DNA from: Methanomicrobia archaeon
Lineage (GTDB): Archaea > Halobacteriota > Bog-38 > Methanoflorentales > Methanoflorentaceae
Direction of reading: 5' to 3'
Assembly (NCBI GenBank): GCA_015660915.1
Contig: JACTTZ010000006.1
Span: 16,370-80,369, forward strand
DNA length: 64,000 nucleotides
The notes under the pieces were generated by a model. It did no database searches, was not told the DNA's origin, and was given only the letters and a program-made list of their open reading frames with translations. This document shows positions 10,282 to 54,551 of the stretch, piece by piece. The stretch's first letter is position 1; each line of letters starts with the position of its first letter. The position numbers and the translations under genes are program-made.

Positions 10282-10536
10282 ACTCCGACATGGAAGAAGA
10301 TGTATCACTACTTTGAGTATCGAAATGCTGAGTTCTTGGAGCACTACCACAAACGGAGCAATGCCGAAACGACGTTCCATATGACAAAGAGCAAGTTTGG
10401 GCACGCGGCGAGAAGCAAGACCGAAGTGGTGCAGGTTAATGAGGTGTTGCTAAAAGTGTTTTATCACAACATCTGTGTGGTGATTCAACAGATGTGGGGG
10501 TTGGGGATAGAGCCGAATTTCTTCGGCTCGAGCTAA
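10282..10536 (+). pseudogene. C-terminal remnant of the SWIM-DDE transposase
   Basis: PTWKKMYHYF...YHKRSNAETTFHM..SKFG is nearly identical to the transposases at 44-45 kb and 52-53 kb; in-frame stop at 10279. Confidence 0.88.
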
Positions 10537-10614
10537 GGTAGGTTCTTGAACAATAACTTTTTGTATTTTCATTTGGCATTAATGCAGCGCTAAAACAATA
10601 GATAAAGCAGACAA

Positions 10615-11655
10615 ATGGAAGAATCAGAACCAATGGTAGAATTAGCCGGAGAATCTAGCGAATTAGACGCGTCGGAATGGTGGAGCTCTCATTTCGACTT
10701 CAACCTTTACAACCTGGAGAGAAAAGGTGATAAGTACTATCTTAAGTCGCCTCGATTCGTAAAAAAAAGGGATAGCAAAGCAATACGGGAAGAGGATAAG
10801 AGCAAAGCAATATGGGAAGAAGCTAAAAACCTGCTTCCGGTAATTAAAGCCATTTCAAAAATACGAGGTTTGGGCGGCCAATCTATGAAGATTGGTAGCG
10901 AAGTTCGTAAAGAATGGGGAAGACCAGCTGACGTTATCGTGGAGGGGGGACGGCCACACTTATTCATTTTTGGAGAATTGCTGTCTGGCAGAGGGAGATT
11001 TTGGAAGGAAGATGGCATAATCTATTTTAGAGGGCATGAAACAGGGCGGGTTGTAAACGAACACGACCAGATTATGCAGGAATTTATGCGGGATTTCGGA
11101 AACAACATACCGGATTTCGCTCTTAACATACCGCAACTTGAATTTTTAGTGCAGCAGGCACGGCAGCTCGATAGCGACCTCAATCTACTTGAAAAATGCG
11201 TCGATGACCCATATGTATACGAGACGTTTTCCTATTTTGCAGGGGAGCCAAATTGGCTCAACCTCTGGAAGACTTATGAAATGATTAAATATTGTGTCGA
11301 TAGAAACTTGGGTCATACATTTACGCGCGAAAAATGCGCGATAATAGACAATGGTTGGGCAGAAGAGCTAGAATTAGTGAATTTTGCGAACAGCGCAAAT
11401 TACTATTTAGCGCAAGGAGACCCTCGTCACTCTCGCGCATATTATCTTAATAAAGAAAGGGAGACAGAAGAAAAGTTAAATCCTGCTCAGAAACAAAGTC
11501 ATAGAGAGCGAAAGGCGAGGCGCGAGGCCGCTAACCCACCAATGAGTCTGCCTATGGCAGAAGAGCTCATCATACGAATCTTTCGACGATGGTGTAGATG
11601 GAGAGTCACCAATATGTGTTTGGAGAGCTACCAGCACGTGATAGTCACCGTTTAA
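10615..11655 (+). CDS. Hypothetical cargo protein (possibly HEPN-like C-terminus)
   Basis: 346-aa AT-richer ORF; WLNLWKTYE..GW..F.NSAN..GDPRH..PMSL pattern. Confidence 0.6.
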   Translation: MEESEPMVELAGESSELDASEWWSSHFDFNLYNLERKGDKYYLKSPRFVKKRDSKAIREEDKSKAIWEEAKNLLPVIKAISKIRGLGGQSMKIGSEVRKEWGRPADVIVEGGRPHLFIFGELLSGRGRFWKEDGIIYFRGHETGRVVNEHDQIMQEFMRDFGNNIPDFALNIPQLEFLVQQARQLDSDLNLLEKCVDDPYVYETFSYFAGEPNWLNLWKTYEMIKYCVDRNLGHTFTREKCAIIDNGWAEELELVNFANSANYYLAQGDPRHSRAYYLNKERETEEKLNPAQKQSHRERKARREAANPPMSLPMAEELIIRIFRRWCRWRVTNMCLESYQHVIVTV

Positions 11656-11662
11656 CGCGAGT

Positions 11663-11932
11663 CTACCTCATTTCAACTTTAAGGTGCGCTCTCCGCACCA
11701 TCGCAGTCGTTTCCTCATCATCTAAAAGGTTTGGGAAATCCGCGGAATAATATTCCATATCAAAGCAGAAAAGCAACCCCATAAGCACCTCACGATCGGT
11801 GAGCGATACCGTAAGGTTGTAGTTAGTGAAACTGTATTCTGAAATTCCTTTTGCCTCTTCCCATTCTTTTCCCATCCACTCGTCTAGTTCAATACAAAGT
11901 TTCTTAGCTTCGTTATCTTTGTTTCGTGTCAA
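11663..11932 (-). CDS. Hypothetical cargo protein
   Basis: 89-aa ORF, TTG start with AGGTGA RBS. Confidence 0.55.
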   Translation of the reverse strand: MTRNKDNEAKKLCIELDEWMGKEWEEAKGISEYSFTNYNLTVSLTDREVLMGLLFCFDMEYYSADFPNLLDDEETTAMVRRAHLKVEMR

Positions 11933-12022
11933 AAAATCACCTCAAAAAAGTGTTGCAACAGTCGGGACTTTGTTGCAGAAGTAGGCGAGAGACTGGGGTT
12001 TTGCAACAAAGCCCCTGATTGA

Positions 12023-12108
12023 GGCTTTGTTGAAGAAGTGCTCGTGAAGCGCTACTTTTTCAACAGACGACTGACTTTTTCAACACGTGGCAGTTATTCA
12101 ACAAAGCC
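12023..12108 (-). mobile_element. 86-bp non-autonomous mini-element (MITE) of the same family
   Basis: TIRs GGCTTTGTTGAAGAAGT / GGCTTTGTTGAATAACT, two internal TGTTGAAAAAGT repeats, flanked by CCTGATTGA at 12014-12022 and 12109-12117. Confidence 0.92.
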
Positions 12109-12120
12109 CCTGATTGACCA

Positions 12121-12132
12121 ACTTTTATATAG
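12121..12132 (+). promoter_or_regulatory. TATA box of the heat-shock operon
   Basis: ACTTTTATATAG upstream of the HSR operator and the ATG at 12196. Confidence 0.75.
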
Positions 12133-12155: not shown

Positions 12156-12195
12156 TGTTACGATCTATCAGACCGTGACACGCTACGAAACAGCA

Positions 12196-12849
12196 ATGGA
12201 CGAAGCAGCACTCCTTGACATTCTCGGCAATGAAAATCGCCGCAATATCTTGAAACTCCTTTCACTGCGGCCTTTTTACGTGACTGAGATTTCAGAACGA
12301 CTGCACGTGGCCCCGAAGGCGGTGATCAGTCATCTCGGCATGCTCGAGCGGGCAGGGATTATCCAGTTCTTTGTCGATGAGCGACGCCGGAAGTACTTCC
12401 ACATCGCGGATAACTTGCTGCTCGAGATTCAAATCTCGCCGTTTAGCTACGGAGTCGAATCCGCTAATGATGCACGCGACGAACCAACCGTTGCCGAGTT
12501 TCCAACTCCGATTGGCGAAATACAAATCAAAACGAACAGTTTGGCCGACGTTGCGGAGACACTCGACAGCCTAAGGAGGGCTAATCGCGAGCTGATGGGG
12601 GCGCAGCGAAGGGTCCAAGAGTTGATCAATGAGGTCATGGAGCGCGGCGCAAGAAAGATTGACGCAATATCGCGCGACTTTGTTGAATATGACATCCTTT
12701 CGTTGCTGCTTACAGGGCCCAAGACGGCCAATCAGCTGTCTGCGGGGCTCGCGATACCTGGCCAAATACTCGTAGAGCGGCTGCGTAACCTTGAAAAACG
12801 AGGGAAAATCAAAAGAATGGACGCCAGAACGTATTGGCTGGCGAGGTAA
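12196..12849 (+). CDS. ArsR-family heat-shock regulator (HSR1-like)
   Basis: LLDILGNENRRNILKLL..RPFYVTEIS..PKAVISHL; synteny with cdc48 and hsp20. Confidence 0.85.
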   Translation: MDEAALLDILGNENRRNILKLLSLRPFYVTEISERLHVAPKAVISHLGMLERAGIIQFFVDERRRKYFHIADNLLLEIQISPFSYGVESANDARDEPTVAEFPTPIGEIQIKTNSLADVAETLDSLRRANRELMGAQRRVQELINEVMERGARKIDAISRDFVEYDILSLLLTGPKTANQLSAGLAIPGQILVERLRNLEKRGKIKRMDARTYWLAR

Positions 12850-42942: not shown

Positions 42943-43395
42943 CACCGGCTGGTGTGCATATTTTTTGCGTCGTTTCGCAGTGACAAATCCCGCATAAGCG
43001 GCTGACAAGATTCGACTTTTTTCCGCTGAGGCTTTTTTTTGATGATTTGCGATTGTGGTTGTTATCCACTGACGCCAGAGAATCGGTCTGTCTAGGTCTT
43101 ACGCAGTACTAACGTCGCGCGGCCCCTAAAGAAGCCCTTGAAAAGATGCTTGGGACGGGTGTATAGCGCCGCAATAACTCTTAGGCTTTGTTGCATAACC
43201 CCCGTCTGTTGCAAAAGTAAAGGTTGTGTTGCAAAAGTCTACGCGGGTTGGGGTTCTGTTAAACCAAACGTTGTTAATCCTAGGTTGTTGAGAAAAGGTT
43301 GGCGGAAAATTGTTTTTCTGTAACAATTGCACGTTACATAGGATTATGTTATCGCAATATGGGATAACTTGCATTGTATTTGTAGAGGGAGTAAT

Positions 43396-44184
43396 ATGAC
43401 GCTAAGTATCATTATTAGAAGCCCAGATGGCATTGTACTCGCCACTGAAAGCAGAAGTTTGACGGAAGTGACTTTGCCAAACGGTTCGAAATGCCCAATT
43501 AGCTTTGATGAAACCAAGAAACTCCTAACGTTTGACGAACCCCACAACTTTGTAGCTGCTGTCACGACCGGGCTTGGAGGAATAGGGAATAGGTCTGTTT
43601 ATAATTTCGTACCAGATTTTGAAGCAACAATCGCTTCAGAAGGTCGTATGCCGGTTGACGAGTTCTCCGAAAAAATGTCCAACTTCTTCATGAAGGAATG
43701 GGAGAGGCGGCCACCAGAAATGAAAGACTGGAAAGGCCCGTCGATATCTTTTCTCGCGGCGGGTTTCAACGAAGGGGATGCATATCCTCACACTTACAAA
43801 ATAGATATTCCTTCTGAACCGAAACCCGTTGAATTGCCCCAGATAGACATAACTTGGGGAGGTGAAGGAGAGCTAGTCAACAGACTGATAAAAGGTTATG
43901 ACCCCAACCTTCCAAAACGATTGTCAGACGCTTGGTCGTTAACTGAAGAACAAGTGAAAGCTATGCCAGAAATCGCGCAACCGCTTTCTCTACAGTTCCC
44001 GTTGCCAGTGATGGGATTGCAAGGCTACATTGACTTAGCGGTATTGCTTCTCCGCACCACGATAGAAACTCAGCGACTAGCACTCTACGTAAGGGGGTGT
44101 GGCGGCCCTATCGACATGGCTACAATAACGCGAGGAGACGGGCTTTGCTTCGTTCGACTTAATGACGAAGACGAGATTTGCTAA
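43396..44184 (+). CDS. Proteasome-beta-like Ntn hydrolase (cargo)
   Basis: M-T-LSIIIRSPDGIVLATESR start, K at 'ETKKL', FLAAGF, GGPIDMATIT. Confidence 0.7.
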   Translation: MTLSIIIRSPDGIVLATESRSLTEVTLPNGSKCPISFDETKKLLTFDEPHNFVAAVTTGLGGIGNRSVYNFVPDFEATIASEGRMPVDEFSEKMSNFFMKEWERRPPEMKDWKGPSISFLAAGFNEGDAYPHTYKIDIPSEPKPVELPQIDITWGGEGELVNRLIKGYDPNLPKRLSDAWSLTEEQVKAMPEIAQPLSLQFPLPVMGLQGYIDLAVLLLRTTIETQRLALYVRGCGGPIDMATITRGDGLCFVRLNDEDEIC

Positions 44185-44369
44185 CTGCGGAGACTAAAAA
44201 ATTGTCCTGAGGTACCGTGTTTCGGCCCTTCAGTTTGCGAGCGAACGCGCTTTATATATTCCTCAATTGCTTTGTAGTCGCTTTCCGTAATTTCTTCGCC
44301 GTCTAAGAAGTATTTGTCAACGCTCTTTTTCTCAAGCACGTGGGTGCTATTTTCTATCTTACTTTCCAT
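44181..44369 (-). CDS. Small hypothetical protein divergent from the transposase
   Basis: 62-aa ORF. Confidence 0.45.
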   Translation of the reverse strand: MESKIENSTHVLEKKSVDKYFLDGEEITESDYKAIEEYIKRVRSQTEGPKHGTSGQFFSLRS

Positions 44370-44383
44370 TCTAAATTAACCGA

Positions 44384-45678
44384 TTGCTAGGTAAACGTTT
44401 AATCGGACGTACGACGATTATCAGTTCTTTGTCGCGTATTTCTAGCTGCCAATCTAATGAATCATCACTCGTCAGGTTCAAAGCTCGGAAGGAAAGGGGT
44501 TTGAGCATAGCAAAGACCTGCAAAATCACCAAGAGCGGCAACAGTTGGATAGTTCCCTCTCAGTCAAACGGAACCACATACGACGTAGAATTCTCAGAAT
44601 TTGACCATAAACAGTCTTGCACTTGCCCTGATTACCAATACCGGAAAATCAAGTGCAAGCATATCTTCGCGGTTGTGTTAATCGTCACTGAAGAGATTGA
44701 CAGCTACGGAACGGTCACGCAGACTGTTACAAAGCGGGTAAGCTACGCGCAGAATTGGCAAGCCTACGACCAAGCGCAAATACACCAGAAAGAGCTTTTT
44801 ATGGGCTTGCTCCGAGACTTAACAAGTTCTATTCCGCAGCCGGAGTACACGTTTGGAAGGCCGAAGTTGCCATTAGCCGATATGGTGTTTGCGTCTGCTT
44901 TGAAGGTCTTCTCAACCTTTTCGCTAAGGCGGTTTACCACTGACATGCAAATAGCAAAGGAGAGAGGTTTGATTGAGAGAGTGCCCTACTACACGACTGT
45001 TGCGCGGTATATGGAGAATTCAGAGCTAACACCCATCATCAAAGACCTTATCGCCATGACAAGCCTCGCTTTAGCCTCAGTTGAAAACGACTTCACTATT
45101 GACAGCTCAGGATTCGGAACTTCGAGGTTTGTCAAGTGGTTCGACCACAAATACGGCAAAGACAAAGACGTTAGGACGTGGGTAAAAGCGCACGTAGCTT
45201 GCGGGGTTAAGACAAACATCGTTACTGCTGTCGAGTTGACAATGGGTAACGAGCATGATTCAAAGTTTCTGCCGGAACTGGTGACTCAGACAGCTCAGAA
45301 CTTTACGTCAAAGAAGTGTCCGGAGATAAGGCGTATTCTTCGAGAGCCAATTTAGAATTGATAAACGAGCTGGGCGCTGTGCCTTACATCCCATTTAAAA
45401 AGGGAACCACAGGCCGAGCGAAGAACGCGCCAACGTGGAAGAAGATGTATCACTACTTCGAATTCAGAAACGAGGAATTCCTAGAGCACTACCACAAGCG
45501 GAGCAATGCAGAGACGACGTTTCATATGATAAAGAGCAAGTCTGGGGATTCAGTACGCAGTAAGACGGAAGTGGCTCAGGCTAATGAAGTCTTACTGAAA
45601 GTGCTGTGCCACAACATCTGCGTGGTAATACAGGAGATGTTTGAGTTGGGCATTGAACCCAACTTTTTTTCTTCTTAA
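44384..45678 (+). pseudogene. SWIM-DDE transposase with a 1-nt frameshift near 45305
   Basis: CTCPDY..CKHI SWIM, IDSSGF, GDKAY, YHKRSNAE. Reads CTTTACGTC where the intact copy has CTTTAACGTC. Start uncertain. Confidence 0.88.
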
Positions 45679-45756
45679 GGGTGGGTGTTTGGTTCGGCAG
45701 CCAGAGCTTTTTGTAAGAGCACTGTTAATAACCACTCTTCTGGAAGGCGATAACCT

Positions 45757-46038
45757 ATGAATCAGAGCGAGCTGTTTAAAGAAGTTCTTGAGAATATTAG
45801 GAAAGAGATTAAATCCCAAAATGATGAGATAATAAAAATCGCAGAGCGTGTTGGAGATAAAGAGAGAAAGAAGATAGGAGACCGTATTAGCATCGACAGC
45901 GACATCGCTGACGGCTTCAAGAACATCGTTTCCAACATCGACCGGCTAGAACAGATGATAAGCGCGGTAAACCAGAGAGTTTTTGAGGTAAACCAGAGAG
46001 TTACTGAATTGGCGAAGCATACTTACCCCTATGTATGA
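45757..46038 (+). CDS. Small coiled-coil cargo protein
   Basis: 93-aa heptad-rich ORF. Confidence 0.6.
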   Translation: MNQSELFKEVLENIRKEIKSQNDEIIKIAERVGDKERKKIGDRISIDSDIADGFKNIVSNIDRLEQMISAVNQRVFEVNQRVTELAKHTYPYV

Positions 46039-46102
46039 GTGTGTTACACGTTTGTGGTTGTGACGGTAAGAACCTAACCAGAAATTTGGGGGGGGTGAGG
46101 AA

Positions 46103-46264
46103 TTGGTCAATGAAGATGAATTTAAGGTATTAGAAAACCGTGTGGAAGAGCTTGAAAGACTTTTTGAAGAACTCCATCAGCAAATGACACCCGATAAGAT
46201 AGGAAAATTGGTTGAGAAATACGTGAAAGAATATGCTAAGCTTCCAGAAGGAGCTAGGAGTTAA
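46103..46264 (+). CDS. 53-aa coiled-coil cargo protein (below the ORF-track cutoff)
   Basis: GGTGAGG RBS, TTG start; MVNEDEFKVLENRVEELERLFEELHQQ...GARS. Confidence 0.55.
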   Translation: MVNEDEFKVLENRVEELERLFEELHQQMTPDKIGKLVEKYVKEYAKLPEGARS

Positions 46265-46402
46265 CGAGTCGTATACGCTTATTATTTTCTGCTTTACTCC
46301 TTAACTTAACGAATCTTTGTTACCAACCGATTCACCTCAGCCACTTTTCACCGATTCAGCAACCGCAGATTCAGCACTAGTTTCGAGTGGGTTCACTGGA
46401 GA

Positions 46403-46490
46403 TTCAACAAAGCCGCAACAAAAGATGTTTGAGTTGGGGATTGAGCCGAGTTTCTTTGGTCTTACGCCCGCTTTGAATGCCGACTTGTAA
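46403..46490 (+). pseudogene. Orphan TIR plus the last 21 codons of another transposase copy
   Basis: TTCAACAAAGCC at 46403-46414, then MFELGIEPSFFGLTPALNADL*. Confidence 0.75.
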
Positions 46491-46554
46491 GCAAGACTAC
46501 CGAAAGATATTTTTCTTTTCACATATTATATTATAAAACAGGGACGTGGCGACG

Positions 46555-46845
46555 ATGGCAGGTATAATCAATAGTCGTGGCAATTCTTTTACTGGTGGTG
46601 ACGATTATTTTCAAGGTGGCAATGCATCTGTAAATGGCAACTATTTTTCGGCAAGAGACGATGTTATTCTTGTGGATTCCTCCGCCTTAACAGCCTGCGC
46701 CTTACCTACCTTTATAAGAAGCGGAGAAACTCTACCTCCAGAAATACTCCCGGATGTAAGTAAAGAGAAGCCACTACTCTTCGAAATAGATATCATACGT
46801 GTTGTTTCGGCTGAGCCGTTAATAGACCAAATAAAACGACGTTGA
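46555..46845 (+). CDS. Hypothetical cargo protein
   Basis: Low-complexity ~96-aa ORF immediately upstream of the next gene. Confidence 0.5.
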   Translation: MAGIINSRGNSFTGGDDYFQGGNASVNGNYFSARDDVILVDSSALTACALPTFIRSGETLPPEILPDVSKEKPLLFEIDIIRVVSAEPLIDQIKRR

Positions 46846-46865
46846 AGGCGTTTAGATGGGTAATA

Positions 46866-47630
46866 ATGGTTAATATTGACCCTTGCGACGCCTGCGACGC
46901 AAAAGACAAGTGTTCAGCAGTTTTTGATGAAATTGACAATACTAAGGAAATTGAACAGGGCGACATACTCCTTTTGCCTTATATTTATCCTATAGGACGT
47001 ATCGAATTTGCAGAAGATAAGCCCGAGGGTAAGCTCAAAGCATGGATACAAAAATGGAATGCTGTGGTGCTAAGTCACTCTAGCACTTTGGCACAAAACA
47101 AGTTAGACCTCGTGCTTCTCTGTCCTATATGGGGGGTAAGCAGTTTCTATGCAAATCGCGTCGAGCGGCTTAAACTAGATGATGAATATGCCAAAAAAAT
47201 TTTTAAAGACGGTAAATTTGATAGAGAAAACTTCAAAAATAAAACAGATAGTCTACTTAGTGAAGCGACTATAGGTACTCAATATGGTTACAGTATTCTA
47301 AAAAAGACACCTCCGTGCGACAAATATCAAAAAGGCTTAGCTCCGATGCTTGTTGATTTTACTAATGCTTATTCACTTCCTGTAGATTTAATAAAGCGTT
47401 ACGTAGAAAAATCTCAAGACAAGCCTAAGAGGCTTAGGTTGACATGCGAGTATAGAATTGATTTGGTAAGCAGGTTCAACTATTTCTTGCAAAGGACTGT
47501 GGCGCCAAGAGATGAACTTAGTTTTCCAGATATGAAGCAAAATGACATTGATTATCCACGAATAGATACGATGCTCGATAAAGTGGCTGAGGCTTCAGAA
47601 AAAAAAGAAAAGAAAACGGGTGAAAGCTGA
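46866..47630 (+). CDS. Hypothetical cargo protein, possible PemK/MazF-like fold
   Basis: QGDI...AVVLSHS..L...VLLCPI...LVDF...RL.L...YR..L..RF..F..R pattern. Confidence 0.55.
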   Translation: MVNIDPCDACDAKDKCSAVFDEIDNTKEIEQGDILLLPYIYPIGRIEFAEDKPEGKLKAWIQKWNAVVLSHSSTLAQNKLDLVLLCPIWGVSSFYANRVERLKLDDEYAKKIFKDGKFDRENFKNKTDSLLSEATIGTQYGYSILKKTPPCDKYQKGLAPMLVDFTNAYSLPVDLIKRYVEKSQDKPKRLRLTCEYRIDLVSRFNYFLQRTVAPRDELSFPDMKQNDIDYPRIDTMLDKVAEASEKKEKKTGES

Positions 47631-47652
47631 CCGTCTAATCAAAACAATGACG

Positions 47653-48174
47653 TCAAACAGGTGGATATCTTTTGACGACGCTTTGATGATTGACTAGATA
47701 AATAGGCTCTCCCTGTACGTCATTATGGTCAACTTTTGCAATTGCTTGAGCAACGGTTTGCACAGATAACTTGATGCCTTCTACTTCGTATTCATTCCAC
47801 GGTTCTTTCACAGGTGTAAACTCCAAGGCGTTTTCTTTAAGTAACAATTCAATCTGAGACGGTTCTGACGGAAGTCGAGCATTGGACGGGTTCCCTCTTA
47901 ATCCAGAAGGTGAAAATGAAGCCATTATAGGTATAGTAGTTGCAGTATAATTGCCGTCTATCTTAAAGAATTTTAGCGGCTTAACAAGAAGCTTTATTAC
48001 TGTTTCATCATTGAGACAGTAAACGCTGCACTCTTCCTTTATCCGTTCAAAATCTAAATAACCATATTCTTTAATTTTGTCTTTAACGGTATCAATACTA
48101 GTCATCGGGGTCACCCGTTCAGCGATGTATAAATGTCTATCATTTGAGAAAGTTGTTTTGGTTGCACTACTCAT
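47653..48174 (-). CDS. Hypothetical cargo protein with an internally duplicated domain
   Basis: LDFERIKEECSVYCL and LEFTPVKEPWNEYEV repeats; alternative start at 48105. Confidence 0.6.
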   Translation of the reverse strand: MSSATKTTFSNDRHLYIAERVTPMTSIDTVKDKIKEYGYLDFERIKEECSVYCLNDETVIKLLVKPLKFFKIDGNYTATTIPIMASFSPSGLRGNPSNARLPSEPSQIELLLKENALEFTPVKEPWNEYEVEGIKLSVQTVAQAIAKVDHNDVQGEPIYLVNHQSVVKRYPPV

Positions 48175-48380
48175 GTTTTTTCACCTGTAAAGGCTCCACT
48201 CTTGGGGAAAAAGGCGCGTGTTGCAAAACACCCTTCTGTTGCAAAAGTCGGGGTTGTGTTGCATAAGTGCCTGAGAAATGCGGCGAAATGTGAGTTTTGC
48301 AACAAAGCCTAACTCTTAGGCTTTGTAAAATAAGTGCCGTTTGTTAAAAAAGTCAAGTTTCTGTTAAAAAAGTCAGTGTT

Positions 48381-48695
48381 CTATTTTCGCACCGCTGCGT
48401 TGAGGCCCGACTCGACTTGGTCAATGGTCGTATTGCACAATAACACCACTTTCCTAGTGCTTGTATGCCCTGAAATGAGTTGCACCTCGTCCACAGGCTT
48501 GTCGAACAAAATCGCAAGGTATCTCATGAGCTGTTCGTTTGCTTTTCCTTTTTGTGCTGGCTCAGTGAGTTTGATACGGACGGCATGCCGCCATGCGTTG
48601 AATCCTTCGATGCCTGAATTTCGTGAACTTGGCGCTACTTCTATGCGAATCGTCACGCCTTCTGGTACGGCCCTCAGTGCGCCTTCAAGCTGCAT
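48381..48695 (-). CDS. DUF167 (YggU/UPF0235) protein
   Basis: IEVAPSS, PAQKGKAN, ISGHTSTRK. Confidence 0.85.
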   Translation of the reverse strand: MQLEGALRAVPEGVTIRIEVAPSSRNSGIEGFNAWRHAVRIKLTEPAQKGKANEQLMRYLAILFDKPVDEVQLISGHTSTRKVVLLCNTTIDQVESGLNAAVRK

Positions 48696-49077
48696 AAACG
48701 GGATGAAAAGATAGAAATTTTGGTCTTTGCCCCGACGCACTAACTCCGAAGGTTCATTCTCTTGAAATCTTCGCTGTCCCCTTCAGTTACCCTCGTGCCG
48801 GGGCATGATGCGACCTTTGCCATTACGGGGTTGTTTTGCTATCATCGAAGGGCGTTCGCCAAGAACTCAAACAAAGACCTATACGTAACGGGATACTTTG
48901 GCTCCTATATGCACTGATAATCATCCAAACACGCACGTGACACGTTATACCAGTCCTCTTAAGAGCGTTATTTTGTATATTGGGGATGCTATATATCGTT
49001 TTTGTTTGAGTCACACAGCTAAGGTCATTTCAATGCACTTTTATATTTAATATGCTTAGCCTCAATGTCTGATATTT

Positions 49078-49524
49078 ATGGCTTACTGGCTCTATGTTAC
49101 GAATTTTGACAACTGGAACGTCACGAAAGAGACAAATATTTTAGGAGTTTCCGAAAAGTTCGGAAAGATCCTTTCTCGTGTAAAGAAAGGTGATAAGTGC
49201 TTAATTTATCTAAAGACCGAAACAGTGAGCAGAGAGCGTTATCCTCCACAGGTGGCTGGGGCATATCAGATTGTGTCAGAAGTATTCAAAGACAGCAAAG
49301 TGATGTTCCACGCACCCTACGCTACTTCCAATGAGACATACGGTCTAAGAGTAAGGCTAGAACCTTTGCGGCTATTCGAGCTTCCCATTGAGTTTAAGCC
49401 GCTCGTTTTGAGATTGGCATTTATTACAAACAAGGCAAAATGGTTTTTGAATCTTAGAGGACGAGCAATGGTCGCGATTCCGAAAAGTGATTACGACTTG
49501 ATCCTTTCTGCTGCTCATCATTAA
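49078..49524 (+). CDS. EVE-domain protein
   Basis: MAYWL..NW..VKKGDKCLIY, LAFITNK.KW, M..I.K.DY.LI. Confidence 0.85.
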   Translation: MAYWLYVTNFDNWNVTKETNILGVSEKFGKILSRVKKGDKCLIYLKTETVSRERYPPQVAGAYQIVSEVFKDSKVMFHAPYATSNETYGLRVRLEPLRLFELPIEFKPLVLRLAFITNKAKWFLNLRGRAMVAIPKSDYDLILSAAHH

Positions 49525-49605
49525 ACGGATTATTCAAGGTCAGTTTCGGCTAGGATTCGTAAAATCCATATAGTAAGAACTCATATTACCAGATGGACTG
49601 ATTTT

Positions 49606-52086
49606 ATGAATGATTATTCATCTGAAGATGATGTCAAATATAAGTTTGCGGTTTCCTTTCTCGAAAAAAAAGGCTATTCAACAGATTTTATGGATTTTAA
49701 CAAATCTATAAAAGTTCAAGAAGGCCGCAAAGAAAAGACGATTTTTGCTGATATTGTCGTTTACATCGATAAGAAGAAACAATCTCCTATCATTCTTGTT
49801 GAGACAAAATCTCCAAATGAAATTTTGAATAAAGCCGCAGTTGAGCAGGCAATATCATATGCGCGGTTATTGCCAAGAATTGCACCCTTCGCCCTTTTAA
49901 CAAATTCCAGCCAGACGCGCATTTACCAAGTTGTTGACAAAAACAGAATTGAAGAACTACCAACCAAAGCAGATTCGCGTAAGGATATTGTAACGTCAGT
50001 TATCAGCAAAGCCACTCAGGACTCGCTTAGGCAAGATGCAATTCACGAGCTGTTTGTAATTGATGATGTAAAGACCTTCAGAAATGTGCTAAAACAATGC
50101 CACAACGAAATTCGGAATAATGAAGGCTATGATCCAATTCAAGCTTTTGATGAAATGAGTAAAATTCTCTTCTGCAAGATGTATGAAGAGAAATATGATA
50201 ATGACAACCGATTTACCTTGCGGGTTTTTGACAGGACAATCAATACCTACCGCTTCAATATCATCCAGAAGATATACGAAGAAACAATTAAGCACCCTAA
50301 ATATGCTTCGCTTTTCCCGGAAAATGATAAAATAAAACTCAAAGATCGAACCATAAGGAGGATAGTCAAATTATTTGAACACTATGACCTATCACTTACA
50401 GCGTTTGACATAAAAGGAGAAGCATTTGAATACTTTTTGAGCGACACATTCACAGGTGGATTGGGGGAATATTTCACACCGAGAAACGTTGTTGAATTTA
50501 TTGTAGATGCTATAGACCCTAAAATAGCGGAAAAGATTGTAGACCCTTTTTGCGGAACAGGTGGATTTCTGATTTACGCATTTGATGTCGTGCACCAGAA
50601 AATCCGACTTCAAGATTTTTCTGAAGATGAAAGACAGAAGTGGCAAGAAGCACTGTCAAGTAGATCTTTATTTGGAACCGATTGGAAAGAAAGGACAATT
50701 CAAGCCTGTAAGATGAATATGATTGTTCACGGAGATGGACATACGGGGATATTCTTGCACGATGGTCTAACGAATATCAAAGAGACGGTTCAAGAGAATT
50801 CCTTTGACGTATGTTTAACAAATCCCCCGTTTGGAGCCGTTGAGAATAACAAAGAGGTCTTGGATAATTATCACTTTGGCAAAGGAAGGGAGTCACAGGA
50901 AAGGGAGATCTTGGCCCTCGAAAGAGCGATTCAATTAATAAAACCAGAGCGTAAGTGTGGAATGGTAGTGATTGAAGGAATTTTGAACAATGACAAATAC
51001 AAACCCGTTAGAGACTATGTAAAACAAAAGGTATGGATAGATGGAATTGTAAGCCTACCATCAGACACGTTTTCTGGTTATGGTTCAAAAGCGGCTACCT
51101 CTTTGTTTTTCTTCACTAAAAAAACAGAGCCTGATGAAGGAGAGCAAAAAAGCATCTTCATGGCAATTTGTAACAATTCAGGCTATTCAGCATCAGGACT
51201 AGAGATTCCCGGAAACCAATTGCCAGACATCTTGGTTCAATATAAAAAATTCTTAAAGAATCCGGCAGACGCAACGATTTCTGGTAGTAATGTCGCAGTT
51301 GTCTCAACGGATGATTTGCGAGACCGTTTTGACCCGCAACACTATATTTCGCAAGTGGAGAGCAAAATATCTACCAGCGCCGAGGTCATAAAGACTCAAG
51401 AGCAACTGAAACAGCATTTCAAGAATGTCCAAGCGGATAGTGACTCACTTGTCGACTCCCAATTAACCAAAATAGCAGATATTGGTGAATGGGATATTGT
51501 TAAAATAACAAAGCTTGTCGATGAATATAAAGCTCCTGAAAAATTAGAGCCTAATACTGATTACGCTCTGGTGGGAGTTAGAGGACACGCGCTAGGCGCT
51601 TTTATTAAAGATACTAAAAAAGGAAGTGAAATCAAAGCCAAAAAACTATACAAAACTAAGCCGGGATGTTTGATCTATAACAGGCTGTTTGCGCATCGTG
51701 GGTCGTTCGCAATTCTGGACGACTCTTTTGAGAACTGTTATGTTTCTGGAGAATTCCCACAATTTATAGCTAAGGAGCAAACAAAATACGAACCCGCTAA
51801 CCTAATTAAATATTTGTTTTATTATTGTATAAATCCGGTTTTTGTGGATAATGTCAGACGATATTCTTCCGGCTCGACCAAAGGAAGCCGGTTTAGGTTA
51901 AAAGAAGATTCGTTTTTGGATTTCAAAATTAAAATACCAGCAAGCTCACAGAATTTGAATGCGTTAGTAAATAAACTAGATGACCTTTTTTCGACAACTA
52001 AGAAAATTAAAGAAACACAAATGATGCTTGACTCGGAGATGGAACAACTAAAAGAAAGAATCGTTATGACTCTCCCCCAATCTTAA
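49606..52086 (+). CDS. Single-chain restriction-modification enzyme (HsdR-N-like nuclease + N6-adenine MTase + TRD)
   Basis: ADIVV..LVETK nuclease motif, GEYFTPR, DPFCGTGGFL, TNPPFG, HsdS-like C-terminus. Confidence 0.88.
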   Translation: MNDYSSEDDVKYKFAVSFLEKKGYSTDFMDFNKSIKVQEGRKEKTIFADIVVYIDKKKQSPIILVETKSPNEILNKAAVEQAISYARLLPRIAPFALLTNSSQTRIYQVVDKNRIEELPTKADSRKDIVTSVISKATQDSLRQDAIHELFVIDDVKTFRNVLKQCHNEIRNNEGYDPIQAFDEMSKILFCKMYEEKYDNDNRFTLRVFDRTINTYRFNIIQKIYEETIKHPKYASLFPENDKIKLKDRTIRRIVKLFEHYDLSLTAFDIKGEAFEYFLSDTFTGGLGEYFTPRNVVEFIVDAIDPKIAEKIVDPFCGTGGFLIYAFDVVHQKIRLQDFSEDERQKWQEALSSRSLFGTDWKERTIQACKMNMIVHGDGHTGIFLHDGLTNIKETVQENSFDVCLTNPPFGAVENNKEVLDNYHFGKGRESQEREILALERAIQLIKPERKCGMVVIEGILNNDKYKPVRDYVKQKVWIDGIVSLPSDTFSGYGSKAATSLFFFTKKTEPDEGEQKSIFMAICNNSGYSASGLEIPGNQLPDILVQYKKFLKNPADATISGSNVAVVSTDDLRDRFDPQHYISQVESKISTSAEVIKTQEQLKQHFKNVQADSDSLVDSQLTKIADIGEWDIVKITKLVDEYKAPEKLEPNTDYALVGVRGHALGAFIKDTKKGSEIKAKKLYKTKPGCLIYNRLFAHRGSFAILDDSFENCYVSGEFPQFIAKEQTKYEPANLIKYLFYYCINPVFVDNVRRYSSGSTKGSRFRLKEDSFLDFKIKIPASSQNLNALVNKLDDLFSTTKKIKETQMMLDSEMEQLKERIVMTLPQS

Positions 52087-52210
52087 TTTTTTTGATTGTT
52101 ACTTCGATATAATCTCCTTTCTGTAATCCCTCGTCTTCCCACGCTTTTTTATCGATTACAATACGTCTTTGCTTGTCATTCTTAACTTGCACAATAAATG
52201 GTTTTGACAT
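52064..52210 (-). CDS. 48-aa AbrB/MazE-type DNA-binding protein (not in ORF track)
   Basis: MSKPFIVQVKNDKQRRIVIDKKAWEDEGLQKGDYIEVTIKK; GGTGA RBS; divergent from the transposase. Confidence 0.7.
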   Translation of the reverse strand: MSKPFIVQVKNDKQRRIVIDKKAWEDEGLQKGDYIEVTIKKIKIGGES

Positions 52211-52270
52211 ATTCACCATATATGTCTTCTTCACCACAAACTATTTATTCTTTCCGACCTATTATTATTG

Positions 52271-52284
52271 TGGTGAATTCACCA
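52271..52284. promoter_or_regulatory. Palindromic operator candidate TGGTGAATTCACCA
   Basis: Perfect 14-bp palindrome just upstream of the transposase ATG; further TTCACCA half-sites at 52212 and 52230. Confidence 0.55.
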
Positions 52285-52298
52285 TAGACGTGACAATC

Positions 52299-53537
52299 AT
52301 GCAAGCTCAAGAATTGTTGGAAGCTCGGAAGGAACGAGGCACGGAAATAGCACATAACAACCACATCAAAAAGAGCGAGAAGGGGTGGCTAGTCCATTCT
52401 CAAACGAGCGATGCATCTTACATCGTTCAGTTCTCAGAGTTTGACCACACACATTCATGCGATTGTCCTGATTACCAATACCGGAAAATCAAGTGCAAAC
52501 ACATCTTCGCGGTTGAACTCATTGTTACCGAAGAGATCGACGAGCTAGGTAAGGTCACACAGACTGTCACAAAGAAGGTCAGCTACACACAGGATTGGCA
52601 AGCCTACGACCACGCTCAGATACACCAAAAGGAACTGTTCATGCAACTGCTTCAAGACGTATGCCGCCGTGTGCCACAGCCTGAATACACATTCGGAAGA
52701 CCGAAGCTGCCGCTATCTGATATGGTGTTCCTATCAGCCCTCAAGGTGTTTAGCACCTTCTCATTAAGACGGTTCTTGACAGATGCAGAGATAGCAAAAG
52801 AACGCGGCTACATCGAGAACGTGCCGACGTATGTTTCTGTTGCTCACTATATGGAGAATCCAGACGTAACGCCTATTATCAAGGAGCTTATCACGGTAAC
52901 GAGTCTTCCGCTAACGTCTGTCGAAACAGATTTCACGATAGACAGCTCAGGATTTGGAACCTCAAGGTTTGTTAAGTGGTTCGACCACAAATACGGTAAG
53001 GAAGTTGATACAAGGGCGTGGGTTAAAGCTCACCTCATATGCGGAGTGAAGACGAACATTGTGACGGCGGTTGAACTGACGATGACAAACGAACACGATA
53101 CGAAATTCCTACCTGAACTGGTGTTTCAGACGGCTCAGAACTTTAACGTCAAGGAAGTTTCGGGGGACAAGGCGTATTCGTCAAGGAAGAACTTACAGCT
53201 CATTGGCGACTTGGGAGCTACGCCCTATATTCCTTTTAGAAAGGGAACGACAGGACTCTCTAAGGGCTCAACGATGTGGAAGAAGATGTACCACTACTTC
53301 GAATTCAAAAACGAAGAATTTTTAGAGCATTACCACAAGCGGAGCAACGCAGAAACCACTTTTCATATGATAAAGAGTAAGTTCGGGGATTCGGTGCGGA
53401 GTAAGACAGAGGTTGCTCAGGTCAATGAAGTGCTGTTGAAAGTGTTGTGTCACAACATCTGCGTTGTGATTCAAGAGATGTTCGAGCTCGGACTCGATAT
53501 TAGTTCGTTGTTTCCTATAGGAAATAAGCTAACTTAG
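52299..53537 (+). CDS. Transposase: N-terminal SWIM zinc finger + IS4/IS5-type DDE domain
   Basis: CDCPDY..CKHI; D (IDSSG), D (GDKAY), E in the YREK-type motif Y-HK-R-SNA-E-TTFHMI-K. Confidence 0.92.
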   Translation: MQAQELLEARKERGTEIAHNNHIKKSEKGWLVHSQTSDASYIVQFSEFDHTHSCDCPDYQYRKIKCKHIFAVELIVTEEIDELGKVTQTVTKKVSYTQDWQAYDHAQIHQKELFMQLLQDVCRRVPQPEYTFGRPKLPLSDMVFLSALKVFSTFSLRRFLTDAEIAKERGYIENVPTYVSVAHYMENPDVTPIIKELITVTSLPLTSVETDFTIDSSGFGTSRFVKWFDHKYGKEVDTRAWVKAHLICGVKTNIVTAVELTMTNEHDTKFLPELVFQTAQNFNVKEVSGDKAYSSRKNLQLIGDLGATPYIPFRKGTTGLSKGSTMWKKMYHYFEFKNEEFLEHYHKRSNAETTFHMIKSKFGDSVRSKTEVAQVNEVLLKVLCHNICVVIQEMFELGLDISSLFPIGNKLT

Positions 53538-53662
53538 GTTAACGTCAACCGCGGTTAACGTTATGCTCTTCGAGAGCCGTTCTTAGCTTCATTTGAGTGT
53601 TTCCATTGGAAACTGTTAAGTGCACTTAACGTTAAGCGCGCTTGACCTTAACCGCGGTTAAG
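53528..53662. repeat. Five 16-bp palindromic units (2+3 in tandem)
   Basis: GCTAACTTAGGTTAAC, GTCAACCGCGGTTAAC; GTTAAGTGCACTTAAC, GTTAAGCGCGCTTGAC, CTTAACCGCGGTTAAG. Confidence 0.8.
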
Positions 53663-53786
53663 ATGTCAATGAATAGCATGGTTAGTTTTGGGTTCTCTTT
53701 TTTTGAAAATCTCTTGTTAAAAAAGTAAGACGTTTGTTAAAAAAGTGGGTTCAATTTCTGACTTTATTTACAAAGCCTAACTCTTA

Positions 53787-53801
53787 GAAAATATTATATA
53801 T
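53787..53801 (+). promoter_or_regulatory. BRE/TATA box of the downstream HTH gene
   Basis: GAAAAT-ATTATATA about 27 bp before the ATG at 53827. Confidence 0.7.
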
Positions 53802-53826
53802 TATTAACGGCGTTAATTTGGTTGAT

Positions 53827-54108
53827 ATGAATGCACATGGCGTTGCTGCTGCAATTACCGTAAACGATAGGCCAAACAACCTCGAAGACGTGGCCAAAAA
53901 ACTACGCGTATATCCACCCAGCGTAAAACTAGTGTTCAAGGCGCTTGAACAAAACGGCACAATGACCCTAACCGATATCAAACAGGAAACGTATTTGCCC
54001 TATCGAACAGTGAGATACGCGATCAAAAGGCTAAAAGAAGGCGGTTTGGTAACTCGCATCTTCTACATCCAGGATGCAAGACAAAGTCTCTACCGTTTAG
54101 CGGAATAA
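53827..54108 (+). CDS. Small winged-helix transcriptional regulator
   Basis: PPSVKLVFKAL..ETYLPYRTVRYAIKRL..DARQSLY. Confidence 0.85.
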   Translation: MNAHGVAAAITVNDRPNNLEDVAKKLRVYPPSVKLVFKALEQNGTMTLTDIKQETYLPYRTVRYAIKRLKEGGLVTRIFYIQDARQSLYRLAE

Positions 54109-54191
54109 CTGTTTATGTGCTCGTTCGATCTTGCTAACCCCGTACCAGATCTGCGCAGCGGTTTCAGAACGACGATTAGAGTCGGACCACC

Positions 54192-54551
54192 TTAGAAGCA
54201 ACAGCCCGAATCCAGCGGCTCTTCCGCGGCACGCTTATCAAGAACTAATTTGATTTTATTGCACACGTCACAGAGGTGCGTTGAAAGCGCATCAGGATCG
54301 TCTTTGTATTCTTCAAGGTAATCGTCGATCACCTCGAGCACCTCGGTATCTTGTCCTACAGTCCCCCGTTTGCTTTTAACGTATTGATTAACAGCAGCGG
54401 GCGTAACGCCGAGTATTCGCGCGATTTGCGCCTGGCTTATTCCCTCGTCCTTCATTCGTACCGCCATCTCCGCTCGTATCGCCGGAAGGACGTACTGCAC
54501 GATTATCTCACATCGCGGCCTAATCTTTGACGCCCTATCTGTTTCGCTCAT
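54192..54551 (-). CDS. HTH transcriptional regulator (COG2522-like)
   Basis: PRCE..VLPAIR..SQAQIA.ILGVT.AAVNQY..KRG, C..C. Confidence 0.85.
   Translation of the reverse strand: MSETDRASKIRPRCEIIVQYVLPAIRAEMAVRMKDEGISQAQIARILGVTPAAVNQYVKSKRGTVGQDTEVLEVIDDYLEEYKDDPDALSTHLCDVCNKIKLVLDKRAAEEPLDSGCCF

What the first reader, a model, noticed from the sequence alone, without database searches (positions are those of the whole stretch)
53778..53801. Transposon family appears to insert at a fixed distance from archaeal TATA boxes
Seen: the two loci have unrelated 9-bp target duplications (CCTGATTGA ending at 12117; TAACTCTTA ending at 53786). In both, TTATATA starts exactly 8 nt after the TSD (12125-12131 and 53794-53800), and each TATA box precedes a transcription-regulator gene. 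Each site was hit at least twice at the same base. Established: promoter-anchored insertion is known for yeast Ty3 (TFIIIB) and bacterial ISLre2/TnGBS elements (upstream of sigmaA promoters). Inference: this transposase is positioned by TBP/TFB or by the TATA/BRE DNA, inserting just upstream of BRE and leaving the promoter intact. I know of no archaeal description of this. Only two sites are available here.
Basis: partly seen in the sequence, partly recalled or inferred. Interest (0 to 1): 0.93.

Follow-up and report, generated by a model that had tools for sequence, protein, structure and literature searches.

The report
Transposons that dock beside archaeal promoters
A family of archaeal jumping genes inserts at one fixed spot, six bases upstream of the TATA box of a gene's promoter, leaving the promoter intact; this kind of promoter-anchored insertion is known from bacteria and yeast.

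Summary
The elements are IS5-family, IS903-like transposons and 84-86 bp MITEs. They have GGCTTTGT ends, 9-bp target duplications and a SWIM plus DDE transposase. I collected ends from this genome, 40 relatives, GTDB genomes and peat metagenomes (146 credible ends, 50 flank classes). Among 16 complete, duplication-verified independent sites, 11 have a TATA-box 8-mer starting 7-9 nt beyond the duplication on one flank. The opposite flank of the same sites reaches the stricter 6-bit mark in 1 of 16. An A-rich, BRE-like tract fills the six bases in between. Three promoters were hit repeatedly by different subfamilies at the same base, although the duplicated 9-mer differs between lineages. Nine relatives hold one of these sites empty, with the 9-mer present once. 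Relatives at 36-57% identity from other archaeal lineages follow the same rule. A GC-rich, probably bacterial clade does not. Element orientation is not fixed, and the downstream genes are not only regulators. Whether TBP/TFB or the bare DNA is read remains open: co-folding gave no verdict and no RNA data were listed. Five literature searches found no archaeal description.

The parts
10283..12013 (+). Truncated element, right part only. It holds the 3' fragment of a transposase gene (about 10291-10512), a cargo ORF (10615-11655) and a right end closing in ACAAAGCC at 12013.
   Evidence: tblastn found the fragment. blastn to the other copies starts at about 10283. The end is listed.
12014..12022 (.). 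Target duplication CCTGATTGA, the copy distal to the promoter.
12023..12108 (-). 86-bp MITE. It consists of a 23-nt left end, two subterminal 12-mers (12054 and 12074, minus strand) and a 31-nt right end. Its left end faces the promoter.
12109..12117 (.). Target duplication CCTGATTGA, the copy next to the promoter.
   Evidence: The same 9-mer occurs once in empty sites of relatives.
12118..12131 (+). Core promoter of the ArsR-like gene: a 6-nt BRE-like tract (12118-12123) and the TATA box TTTATATA (12124-12131).
   Evidence: It scores 12.4 bits with a PWM built from this genome's tRNA promoters. It is conserved at the same place in 15 orthologous loci of relatives, both filled and empty.
12175..12849 (+). 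ArsR-type winged-helix regulator gene downstream of hot spot 2.
   Evidence: Pfam HTH_5 at 1.1e-14 and HTH_Cmi2_C at 1.9e-13. Single copy in the genome.
43175..43183 (.). Target duplication TAACTCTTA, first of three copies.
43184..48309 (+). Element A, 5126 bp. Subterminal 12-mers lie at 43207, 43227, 48237 and 48257, all on the + strand. The transposase gene is frameshifted (44384-45355 plus 45316-45678). The cargo ORFs have no Pfam match. A solo end of another subfamily is nested at 46414.
48310..48318 (.). Target duplication TAACTCTTA, second copy, between the two tandem elements.
48319..53777 (+). Element B, 5459 bp. Subterminal 12-mers lie at 48342, 48362, 53715 and 53735, all on the + strand. 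Cargo: an EVE-domain gene (49078-49524) and an N6-methylase/HSDR_N gene (49606-52086). The transposase gene is intact.
52299..53537 (+). Transposase of 412 aa, counted from the start that relatives share (the open frame begins at 52173). It has an N-terminal SWIM zinc finger and a DDE_Tnp_1 domain. D215, D290 and E352 are invariant.
   Evidence: Pfam. NCBIfam IS5_2 at 142.6 bits against a cut-off of 140. Alignment A1 of 33 sequences. The best fold match is Tn5 transposase.
53778..53786 (.). Target duplication TAACTCTTA, third copy, next to the promoter.
53787..53800 (+). Core promoter of the small winged-helix gene: a BRE-like tract gaaaat (53787-53792) and the TATA box ATTATATA (53793-53800). 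A palindrome follows directly.
   Evidence: 9.8 bits. The same promoter carries insertions at the same base in 25 ends, with 9 different duplications and 14 end types.
53827..54108 (+). Small winged-helix regulator gene downstream of hot spot 1. Its ATG lies 26 nt after the TATA box.
   Evidence: Pfam HTH_27, MarR_2 and TrmB-type matches. Single copy in the genome.

Best explanation
These are IS903-like (IS5-family) DDE transposons, some carrying cargo genes, together with their MITEs. They choose targets by the archaeal core promoter.

The transpososome makes its 9-bp staggered cut so that the promoter-side cut lies 6 bp upstream of the 8-bp TATA box, at the upstream edge of the BRE. The promoter fires away from the element and stays whole. 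The promoter-side copy of the duplication keeps the same distance to the box, so the same base can be hit again. Later arrivals would then land between older elements and the promoter, building tandem arrays.

Shown: the fixed geometry, its recurrence at independent sites and in distant archaeal clades, and the repeated hits.

Inferred: the transposase reads the promoter as the TBP/TFB-bound, sharply bent complex, by contact with TFB/TBP or by the DNA shape they impose. It adds a direct preference of its own for an RAA tract next to the duplication.
For: Geometry:
- 11 of 16 complete sites have a TATA 8-mer of at least 4 bits at offsets 7-9 on one flank, and 9 of 16 reach 6 bits. The other flank of the same sites reaches 6 bits in 1 of 16.
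- Chance gives 0.0055 genome-wide and 0.026 in low-GC windows, per flank.
- Over 14 archaeal sites, A stands at +4 and at +12 in 13 each, and T at +8, +9 and +11 in 11-12 each.

Independent reuse of the same base:
- Hot spot 1 has 25 ends, 9 different duplications and 14 end types.
- Hot spot 2 has 10 ends, 5 duplications and 7 end types.
- Hot spot 3 has 3 ends, 2 duplications and 2 end types.
- Because the duplicated 9-mer differs while the distance to the box is constant, the determinant lies on the promoter side.

Empty sites:
- Nine relatives carry hot spot 3 with the 9-mer once and no element.
- Empty forms of hot spots 1 and 2 also exist.

Breadth:
- The same offset is seen for relatives at 36-57% identity. 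These come from contigs labelled Methanosarcinales, Woesearchaeota and Aenigmatarchaeota, and from unlabelled metagenome contigs (L094, L106, L109).
- Three more ends in other families of the phylum show it by eye.
- A GC-rich clade (SH-aLRT 99) shows no TATA at any of its ends.

Targets look like working promoters rather than one DNA word:
- The box variants at insertion sites (for example the TAAGTA type) also occur upstream of this genome's tRNA genes.
- The A-rich tract always lies between the duplication and the box, which gives the promoter a direction pointing away from the element.
- For 12 of the 15 TATA-side flank classes examined, an ORF of at least 45 codons in that direction begins within about 260 nt. 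In several of these it is only a short or doubtful ORF. The other 3 show none, and one of those flanks is only 122 nt long.
- A conserved tRNA-like gene follows hot spot 3.

The target is read by something the subfamilies share. Their subterminal 12-mers have diverged, yet they use the same target rule and even the same base.

Precedent within the family: H-NS-bound DNA captures IS903 and other IS5-family elements in bacteria (PMC11335895, passages read).
Against: - No experiment or transcript map shows that these boxes are bound by TBP/TFB or used as promoters.
- A at +4 is more constant at insertion sites (13 of 14) than at the matching position of the 13 tRNA promoters used as calibrator. 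IS903 itself prefers TRAAW next to its duplication (PMC2577343, table 1). Part of the signal is therefore probably direct DNA reading by the transposase.
- The genome holds 105 boxes as good as that of hot spot 1 with A at -3, and 1956 at 6 bits or more, but only four sites are occupied. Across genomes, three promoters take most hits. Promoter occupancy alone does not explain the choice.
- The PWM rests on 13 tRNA promoters picked with a recalled consensus, and the thresholds were chosen after seeing the data.
- Many ends come from related populations and are not independent.
- Three of the 14 archaeal complete sites fall below threshold, although they look TATA-like by eye.
Confidence: 0.5

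Rival explanations
1. The transposase reads the DNA directly. The transposase, or a conserved domain such as its N-terminal SWIM region, recognises the composite word (RAAA, two to three bases, TTTATATA) or its bendability on one side of the cut, and needs no host factor. Promoters are hit because they carry this word.
For: - IS903, which shares the end sequence and the 9-bp duplication, has a published flank preference of TRAAW next to the duplication.
- Insertion sites keep A at +4 in 13 of 14 cases, more than generic tRNA promoters do.
- The spacing is rigid to the base.
- The GC-rich clade lacks the pattern and forms one separate branch, so a change in the protein could explain the difference as well as a change of host.
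Against: - The IS903 motif is symmetric, but here only one flank carries the signal.
- The box varies as promoters vary (TTGATATA, CTTATACG, CTTTTAAA, TATAAGTA).
- The SWIM region is also present in the GC-rich clade that shows no TATA: matches there start at query residues 49-52.
- Thousands of TATA-like words inside genes of this genome are unoccupied, though the copy number is low.
Confidence: 0.35
2. Homing to old element ends. Degenerate ends left beside the hot spots still bind transposase and draw new copies to the same place, and the TATA box is a bystander.
For: In many relatives, the far side of hot spots 1 and 2 carries fossil ends with repeated subterminal-like words, directly followed by the 9-mer and the promoter. 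This may add to hot-spot strength.
Against: - Sites without any fossil end show the same offset. These are hot spot 1 in this genome, hot spot 3 (which has nine clean empty sites), the C18 MITE, and loci L047, L103, L037, L042 and L077.
- Close relatives carry hot spot 2 empty and without a fossil end (L141, L142, L144).
Confidence: 0.07
3. Chance, or survival after random insertion. Insertions land anywhere, and only those in harmless intergenic places survive.
For: Intergenic, AT-rich DNA is where insertions are tolerated and where TATA-like words are common: 0.026 per three offsets in low-GC windows.
Against: - Selection cannot give a single-base peak, because positions a few bases further upstream would be equally harmless.
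- The opposite flanks of the same insertions, in the same intergenic regions, reach 6 bits in 1 of 16 against 9 of 16.
- Different subfamilies hit the very same base.
Confidence: 0.03

Closest known systems
IS903 (IS5 family, IS903 group) of enterobacteria
   Same: - DDE_Tnp_1 transposase, about 24.5% identical over residues 89-386.
- 9-bp target duplication.
- The first 15 end bases of an IS5-family element on an E. coli plasmid are identical to the end of the window's MITE.
- A flank preference with AA next to the duplication.

The name IS903 for that plasmid element is my recollection. The record says only 'IS5 family transposase'.
   Different: - IS903 is a 1.05-kb single-gene IS with a symmetric target motif and no promoter link.
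- The elements here are 2.3-10 kb with cargo.
- They have two direct subterminal 12-mers at each end.
- Their transposase is about 406-412 aa with an N-terminal SWIM finger.
- Their target signal is one-sided and reaches 14 nt beyond the duplication.
TnGBS / ISLre2 / ISKra4 (Mutator-like transposases) of bacteria
   Same: Insertion at a fixed distance upstream of a core promoter element, 15-17 bp upstream of the -35 box of sigma-A promoters. The promoter is left intact (PMC3942029, passages read).
   Different: - The transposase superfamily is unrelated.
- The promoter type is bacterial.
- Most members insert in one orientation. Here both orientations occur: 35 right ends and 14 left ends face the box. 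This resembles the few symmetric-end members described in that paper.
Yeast Ty3 integration at TFIIIB (TBP, Brf1, Bdp1)
   Same: Integration within a narrow window set by a TBP plus TFIIB-family factor bound to DNA. TFB is the archaeal homologue of TFIIB/Brf1. For PMC8632968 I saw only the search listing and the start of the abstract. The rest is recalled.
   Different: Ty3 is an LTR retrotransposon with an integrase, and it inserts at the transcription start. Binding of the archaeal transposase to TBP/TFB is not shown.
IS1202-group elements (ISAjo2) at dif sites, and H-NS capture of IS5-family elements
   Same: Bacterial insertion sequences placed a fixed few bases from a protein-binding site (5 bp from the XerC site; PMC10132070, abstract in the listing), or drawn to DNA bound by a bending or bridging host protein (PMC11335895).
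   Different: The anchor is different (recombinase site or nucleoid protein), and H-NS capture has no single-base spacing.

Membership tests
IS5 family, IS903 group | DDE_Tnp_1 catalytic domain with an intact DDE triad | tested here: met
   Pfam PF01609 at 8.2e-23. NCBIfam transpos_IS5_2 at 142.6 bits against a cut-off of 140. D215, D290 and E352 are invariant in 33 sequences. The fold is nearest to Tn5 transposase.
IS5 family, IS903 group | 9-bp target duplication | tested here: met
   42 end pairs with exact 9-bp duplications. An IS5-family element on an E. coli plasmid also has 9 bp.
IS5 family, IS903 group | Terminal inverted repeat of the GGCTTTGT type | tested here: met
   The first 15 bases are identical between the MITE end at 12108 and the plasmid element's ends.
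IS5 family, IS903 group | Simple one-gene IS of about 1 kb with a transposase of about 300-320 aa | tested here: not met
   The elements are 2.3-10.5 kb with cargo genes and subterminal direct repeats. The transposase is about 406-412 aa with a SWIM finger.
IS5 family, IS903 group | Symmetric target motif WTTYA-N9-TRAAW | tested here: not met
   Only one flank carries the A-rich tract and the box. The motif is taken from PMC2577343, table 1.
Promoter-anchored bacterial transposons (TnGBS/ISLre2/ISKra4) | Mutator-like (p-MULT) transposase | tested here: not met
   The transposase is IS5-type.
Promoter-anchored bacterial transposons (TnGBS/ISLre2/ISKra4) | Insertion at a fixed distance upstream of a core promoter element | tested here: met
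   There is a peak at offset 7 from the duplication to the TATA 8-mer. The anchor is an archaeal BRE/TATA rather than a -35 box.
Promoter-anchored bacterial transposons (TnGBS/ISLre2/ISKra4) | Single orientation relative to the promoter | tested here: not met
   TATA-facing ends number 35 right, 14 left and 6 undetermined. Both kinds occur at the same hot spots.
Factor-tethered integration (Ty3-TFIIIB type) | Physical contact of the integrase or transposase with TBP or a TFIIB-family factor | not testable with these tools
   This needs pull-down, reconstitution or a structure.
Tn7-like attachment-site transposons | 5-bp duplication, TnsABC(D) genes and one conserved attachment site | tested here: not met
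   The duplication is 9 bp, there is a single IS5-type transposase, and many unrelated sites are used. Only the tandem stacking resembles Tn7.

The most novel reading that the evidence does not exclude
The transposase is tethered by the archaeal pre-initiation factors themselves: TFB bound to BRE, with TBP. This would be a prokaryotic DNA-transposon counterpart of Ty3 and TFIIIB. It would also explain the hot spots. These would be promoters of autoregulated repressors, where a repressor bound just downstream of the box keeps RNA polymerase off and leaves a long-lived TBP/TFB platform.
Probability: 0.4. Interest if true: 0.92.

Novelty: new variant of a known kind. Interest (0 to 1): 0.82.

Why it matters
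Promoter-anchored transposition is known from bacteria (upstream of sigma-A promoters) and from yeast retrotransposons (TFIIIB). An archaeal case would show a third, independent invention, in an IS family (IS5/IS903) that is otherwise known for weak, symmetric target preferences.

- It gives a directly testable system for how a simple DDE transposase reads a TBP/TFB-type promoter.
- It offers free promoter markers in uncultured archaea, because each insertion points to a BRE/TATA.
- It explains how cargo-carrying elements, here with a restriction-modification-like gene and an EVE gene, can pile up in arrays without breaking genes.
- It suggests a natural safe-harbour insertion tool for methanogen genetics.

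Tried and rejected
Co-folding. I co-folded the transposase (alignment A1) with this genome's TBP and the TFB core. The first request found the machine busy and the same request was re-sent. The result was no verdict: score 0.00, controls not run. I draw nothing from it.

RNA evidence for the promoters. No RNA holder was listed for window 53500-54400.

Pyrrolysine or read-through idea. TAG stops were reported inside two transposase matches. I dropped the idea because the stops fall in the non-coding stretch upstream of the shared start. The C4 copy shows no stops with another query and has a 410-aa open frame.

Idea that the small winged-helix gene is itself element cargo. I rejected it because the gene and its promoter occur without any element in relatives (L127-L132).

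Idea that the target resembles the element's own end. The resemblance holds only for one subfamily, and 14 end types use the same base.

Tn7-like reading of the tandem arrays. I rejected it (see Membership tests).

Rfam on the hot-spot-3 flank gave only a sub-threshold tRNA match of 25.6 bits against a gathering score of 29.

Tree. I left out L045, L049, L096 and L103 because of stops inside the match. L037, L039, L047 and L077 went in with X at one stop each. The backbone is unresolved and the root sits on a very long outgroup branch, so no direction of gain or loss is claimed.

Supplementary tables of PMC3942029, which list insertion sites of archaeal ISH6 elements, could not be seen.

Literature. 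Searches found no archaeal fixed-distance TATA targeting. Subscription journals are not in the library.

Full report
WHAT IS IN THE WINDOW

At locus B the 9-mer TAACTCTTA occurs three times (43175, 48310, 53778) and brackets two tandem elements, A (43184-48309) and B (48319-53777). At locus A, CCTGATTGA occurs twice (12014, 12109). It brackets an 86-bp MITE (12023-12108) that follows the right end of a truncated element (about 10283-12013). Beyond the promoter-side copy of each duplication come 6 nt and then an 8-bp TATA box (12124-12131 and 53793-53800). An ArsR-type gene follows one box and a small winged-helix gene the other. The end word GGCTTTGT occurs 13 times in the window against 2.04 expected.

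THE ELEMENTS

Element B encodes an intact transposase with an N-terminal SWIM zinc finger and a DDE_Tnp_1 domain. NCBIfam places it just above the cut-off of an IS5-family model. D215, D290 and E352 are invariant in 33 relatives, and the predicted fold is nearest to Tn5 transposase.

Each end has the terminal word, then two 12-mers spaced 8 nt apart. These 12-mers point the same way at both ends; they are direct repeats, not inverted ones. The MITEs are a 23-nt left end, the two 12-mers and a 31-nt right end.

Subfamilies differ in the middle of the 12-mer and in the inner part of the terminal repeat. Element B carries an EVE-domain gene and an N6-methylase/HSDR_N gene. Element A has a frameshifted transposase gene and unknown cargo.

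The genome (2.04 Mb, 27 contigs) holds a fourth transposase copy on contig C4 (45595-49134, duplication GACGTGAGT) and an 84-bp MITE on C18.

An IS5-family element on an E. coli plasmid shares the first 15 end bases with the window's MITE and also makes a 9-bp duplication. I recall that element as IS903; the record does not name it. The family is therefore an archaeal, enlarged relative of the IS903 group.

IS THE TATA ADJACENCY REAL?

Data gathered:
- I collected relatives from 40 related genomes, GTDB genomes (16 loci) and metagenome contigs (79 loci).
- 42 end pairs have exact 9-bp duplications.
- A profile of the inner 30 nt of the ends found 159 matches. Of these, 146 are credible ends with enough flank: 42 face another element (tandem arrays) and 104 face host DNA. 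The 104 fall into 50 flank classes.

Scoring:
- I built a TATA PWM from this genome's tRNA promoters. It uses 13 of 36 upstream regions, picked with a recalled consensus.
- 19 of the 50 classes have an 8-mer of at least 6 bits within 32 nt. It starts at offset 7 in 9 classes, at 8 in 1 and at 9 in 2.
- Chance for three adjacent offsets is 0.0055 genome-wide and 0.026 in low-GC windows.

Per-site test on 16 complete, duplication-verified sites, read by coordinates:
- One flank reaches 4 bits at offsets 7-9 in 11 sites and 6 bits in 9 sites.
- The opposite flank of the same sites reaches 6 bits in 1 site.
- The binomial tails against the conservative null are 3e-7 and 2e-8.
- The five misses are L033, L094 and L121, which look TATA-like by eye but score low, and L038 and L105, which are GC-rich and show nothing.

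Across the 14 archaeal sites, A stands at +4 and at +12 in 13 each, and T at +8, +9 and +11 in 11-12 each. Positions +1 to +5 read roughly GAAAA, which is BRE-like. The duplication itself shows only a weak C preference at its first two bases.

REPEATED, INDEPENDENT HITS

- The promoter of the small winged-helix gene (hot spot 1) carries 25 ends with 9 different duplications and 14 end types.
- The ArsR-type gene's promoter (hot spot 2) carries 10 ends, 5 duplications and 7 end types.
- The C4 promoter (hot spot 3) carries 3 ends, 2 duplications and 2 end types.
- The duplicated 9-mer changes with the lineage while the distance to the box does not, so the determinant lies on the promoter side.
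- Nine relatives hold hot spot 3 empty, with the 9-mer once, between two diverging promoters. The element sits at offset 7 from one box and 10-11 nt from the other.
- Hot spots 1 and 2 also occur empty. In many relatives the far side carries a decayed element end next to the 9-mer. This fits a history in which newcomers land between older elements and the promoter.

BREADTH

The same offset appears in the following places:
- for relatives at 36-57% identity on contigs labelled Methanosarcinales, Woesearchaeota and Aenigmatarchaeota, and on unlabelled metagenome contigs (L094, L106, L109);
- by eye, at three further ends in other families of the phylum.

A GC-rich clade (L038 and L039, labelled Planctomycetota, plus L100/L102, L105 and L099) forms one branch with SH-aLRT 99. 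It shows no TATA at any end examined. The tree's backbone is unresolved, so I claim no direction of change.

WHAT DOES NOT GENERALISE

- Downstream genes include regulators (winged-helix, ArsR-type, TetR-like). They also include membrane proteins, a TrpC-like ORF, a small coiled-coil ORF and a conserved tRNA-like gene. For three of the 15 TATA-side classes examined (L103, L047 and L042) I found no ORF of at least 45 codons within about 260 nt, and the L047 flank is only 122 nt long.
- Orientation is biased but not fixed: 35 right ends, 14 left ends and 6 undetermined ends face the box. Both kinds occur at the same hot spots, and both MITEs of this genome face the box with their left end.

MECHANISM

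The fixed single-base geometry, the one-sidedness and the reuse by diverged subfamilies show targeting rather than survival of random insertions. What reads the promoter is not settled.

For the TBP/TFB-bound complex:
- The targets vary the way working promoters of this organism vary.
- They have promoter polarity.
- The rule is shared by subfamilies with different end-binding words.
- The rule is absent from the probably bacterial clade.
- IS5-family elements are known to be captured by a DNA-bending host protein.

For direct DNA reading:
- IS903 has a published TRAAW preference next to its duplication.
- The A at +4 is unusually constant.
- The spacing is rigid.

My odds are about 0.5 for the factor-bound promoter, with an added direct RAA preference, and 0.35 for pure DNA reading. 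Why three promoters take most hits, when the genome offers 105 comparably good boxes, is unexplained. Fossil ends, tolerance of the locus, or long-lived TBP/TFB platforms at autoregulated repressor genes are possible reasons. The last of these is speculation.

COMPARISON AND NOVELTY

The closest mechanism is that of TnGBS/ISLre2/ISKra4, which insert 15-17 bp upstream of bacterial -35 boxes, and of Ty3 at TFIIIB. By descent the closest relative is IS903. Five searches of the held library found no archaeal description. The nearest statement is a remark that ISH6 duplicates an AT-rich motif and might therefore land in promoters. I rate this a new variant of a known kind, with high interest.

LIMITS

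- The PWM is small and was seeded with a recalled consensus.
- Thresholds were chosen after seeing the data.
- Many ends are kin and not independent.
- Some ends rest on the end word alone.
- No transcript or binding data exist for these promoters.

Noticed in passing
window 49078-52086: Element B carries an EVE-domain gene and an 826-aa N6-adenine methylase with an HSDR_N-type N-terminus. This looks like a single-chain restriction-modification or defence cargo riding on an IS5-family transposon.
   Followed up: partly
window 46345-46414: A solo end of another subfamily lies nested inside element A. It has the terminal word plus repeated GCTGAATC-like words. A short duplicate of the stretch after the transposase gene follows at about 46423-46456. 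It looks like the remnant of a nested insertion or of recombination between stacked elements.
   Followed up: partly
L146-L153, L157, L158 (upstream of the ArsR-type gene); L050, L052-L054, L062 (far side of hot spot 1): Decayed element ends with repeated TTCACCA- or TTAACA-like words sit directly against the 9-mer and the promoter. They are conserved across the genus and into a second genus. They may be fossils of old insertions, or they may have been co-opted as upstream regulatory repeats.
   Followed up: partly
L002 758-779 / L031 3482-3503: A 21-bp unit, made of the last 12 bases of an element end plus the 9-bp duplication, is repeated in tandem next to hot spot 1. It looks like a footprint of an aberrant second event or of a deletion.
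   Followed up: no
L032, L033: Contigs binned as Korobacteraceae and Acidiferrales (bacteria) carry copies 80% and 73% identical to the window's transposase. At their ends L032 has an archaeal-type TATA flank and L033 a weak, below-threshold TATA-like one. Misbinned archaeal contigs seem more likely than transfer.
   Followed up: no
G000 contig C4 about 45385-45468 (L022 443-526, minus strand): A stretch conserved across the phylum (72-88% identity in distant genomes) gives a sub-threshold tRNA match and lies about 100 nt downstream of the hot-spot-3 TATA box. ARAGORN did not call it. It may be an intron-bearing or unusual tRNA gene.
   Followed up: partly
window 53804-53816 and 53520-53670: The palindrome TTAACGGCGTTAA lies directly downstream of the hot-spot-1 box. 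Similar TTAAC-rich palindromes lie inside element B, just after the transposase gene. The small winged-helix protein may bind both.
   Followed up: no
G017:C1 1403176-1411106 (L130, L137, L139): One complete relative has two paralogues of the small winged-helix gene about 7.6 kb apart. One has an element end against its promoter and the other is empty.
   Followed up: no
G000 contigs C26, C18, C27: The genome encodes three TBP paralogues and one TFB. If targeting uses TBP, paralogue choice could contribute to hot-spot selection.
   Followed up: no
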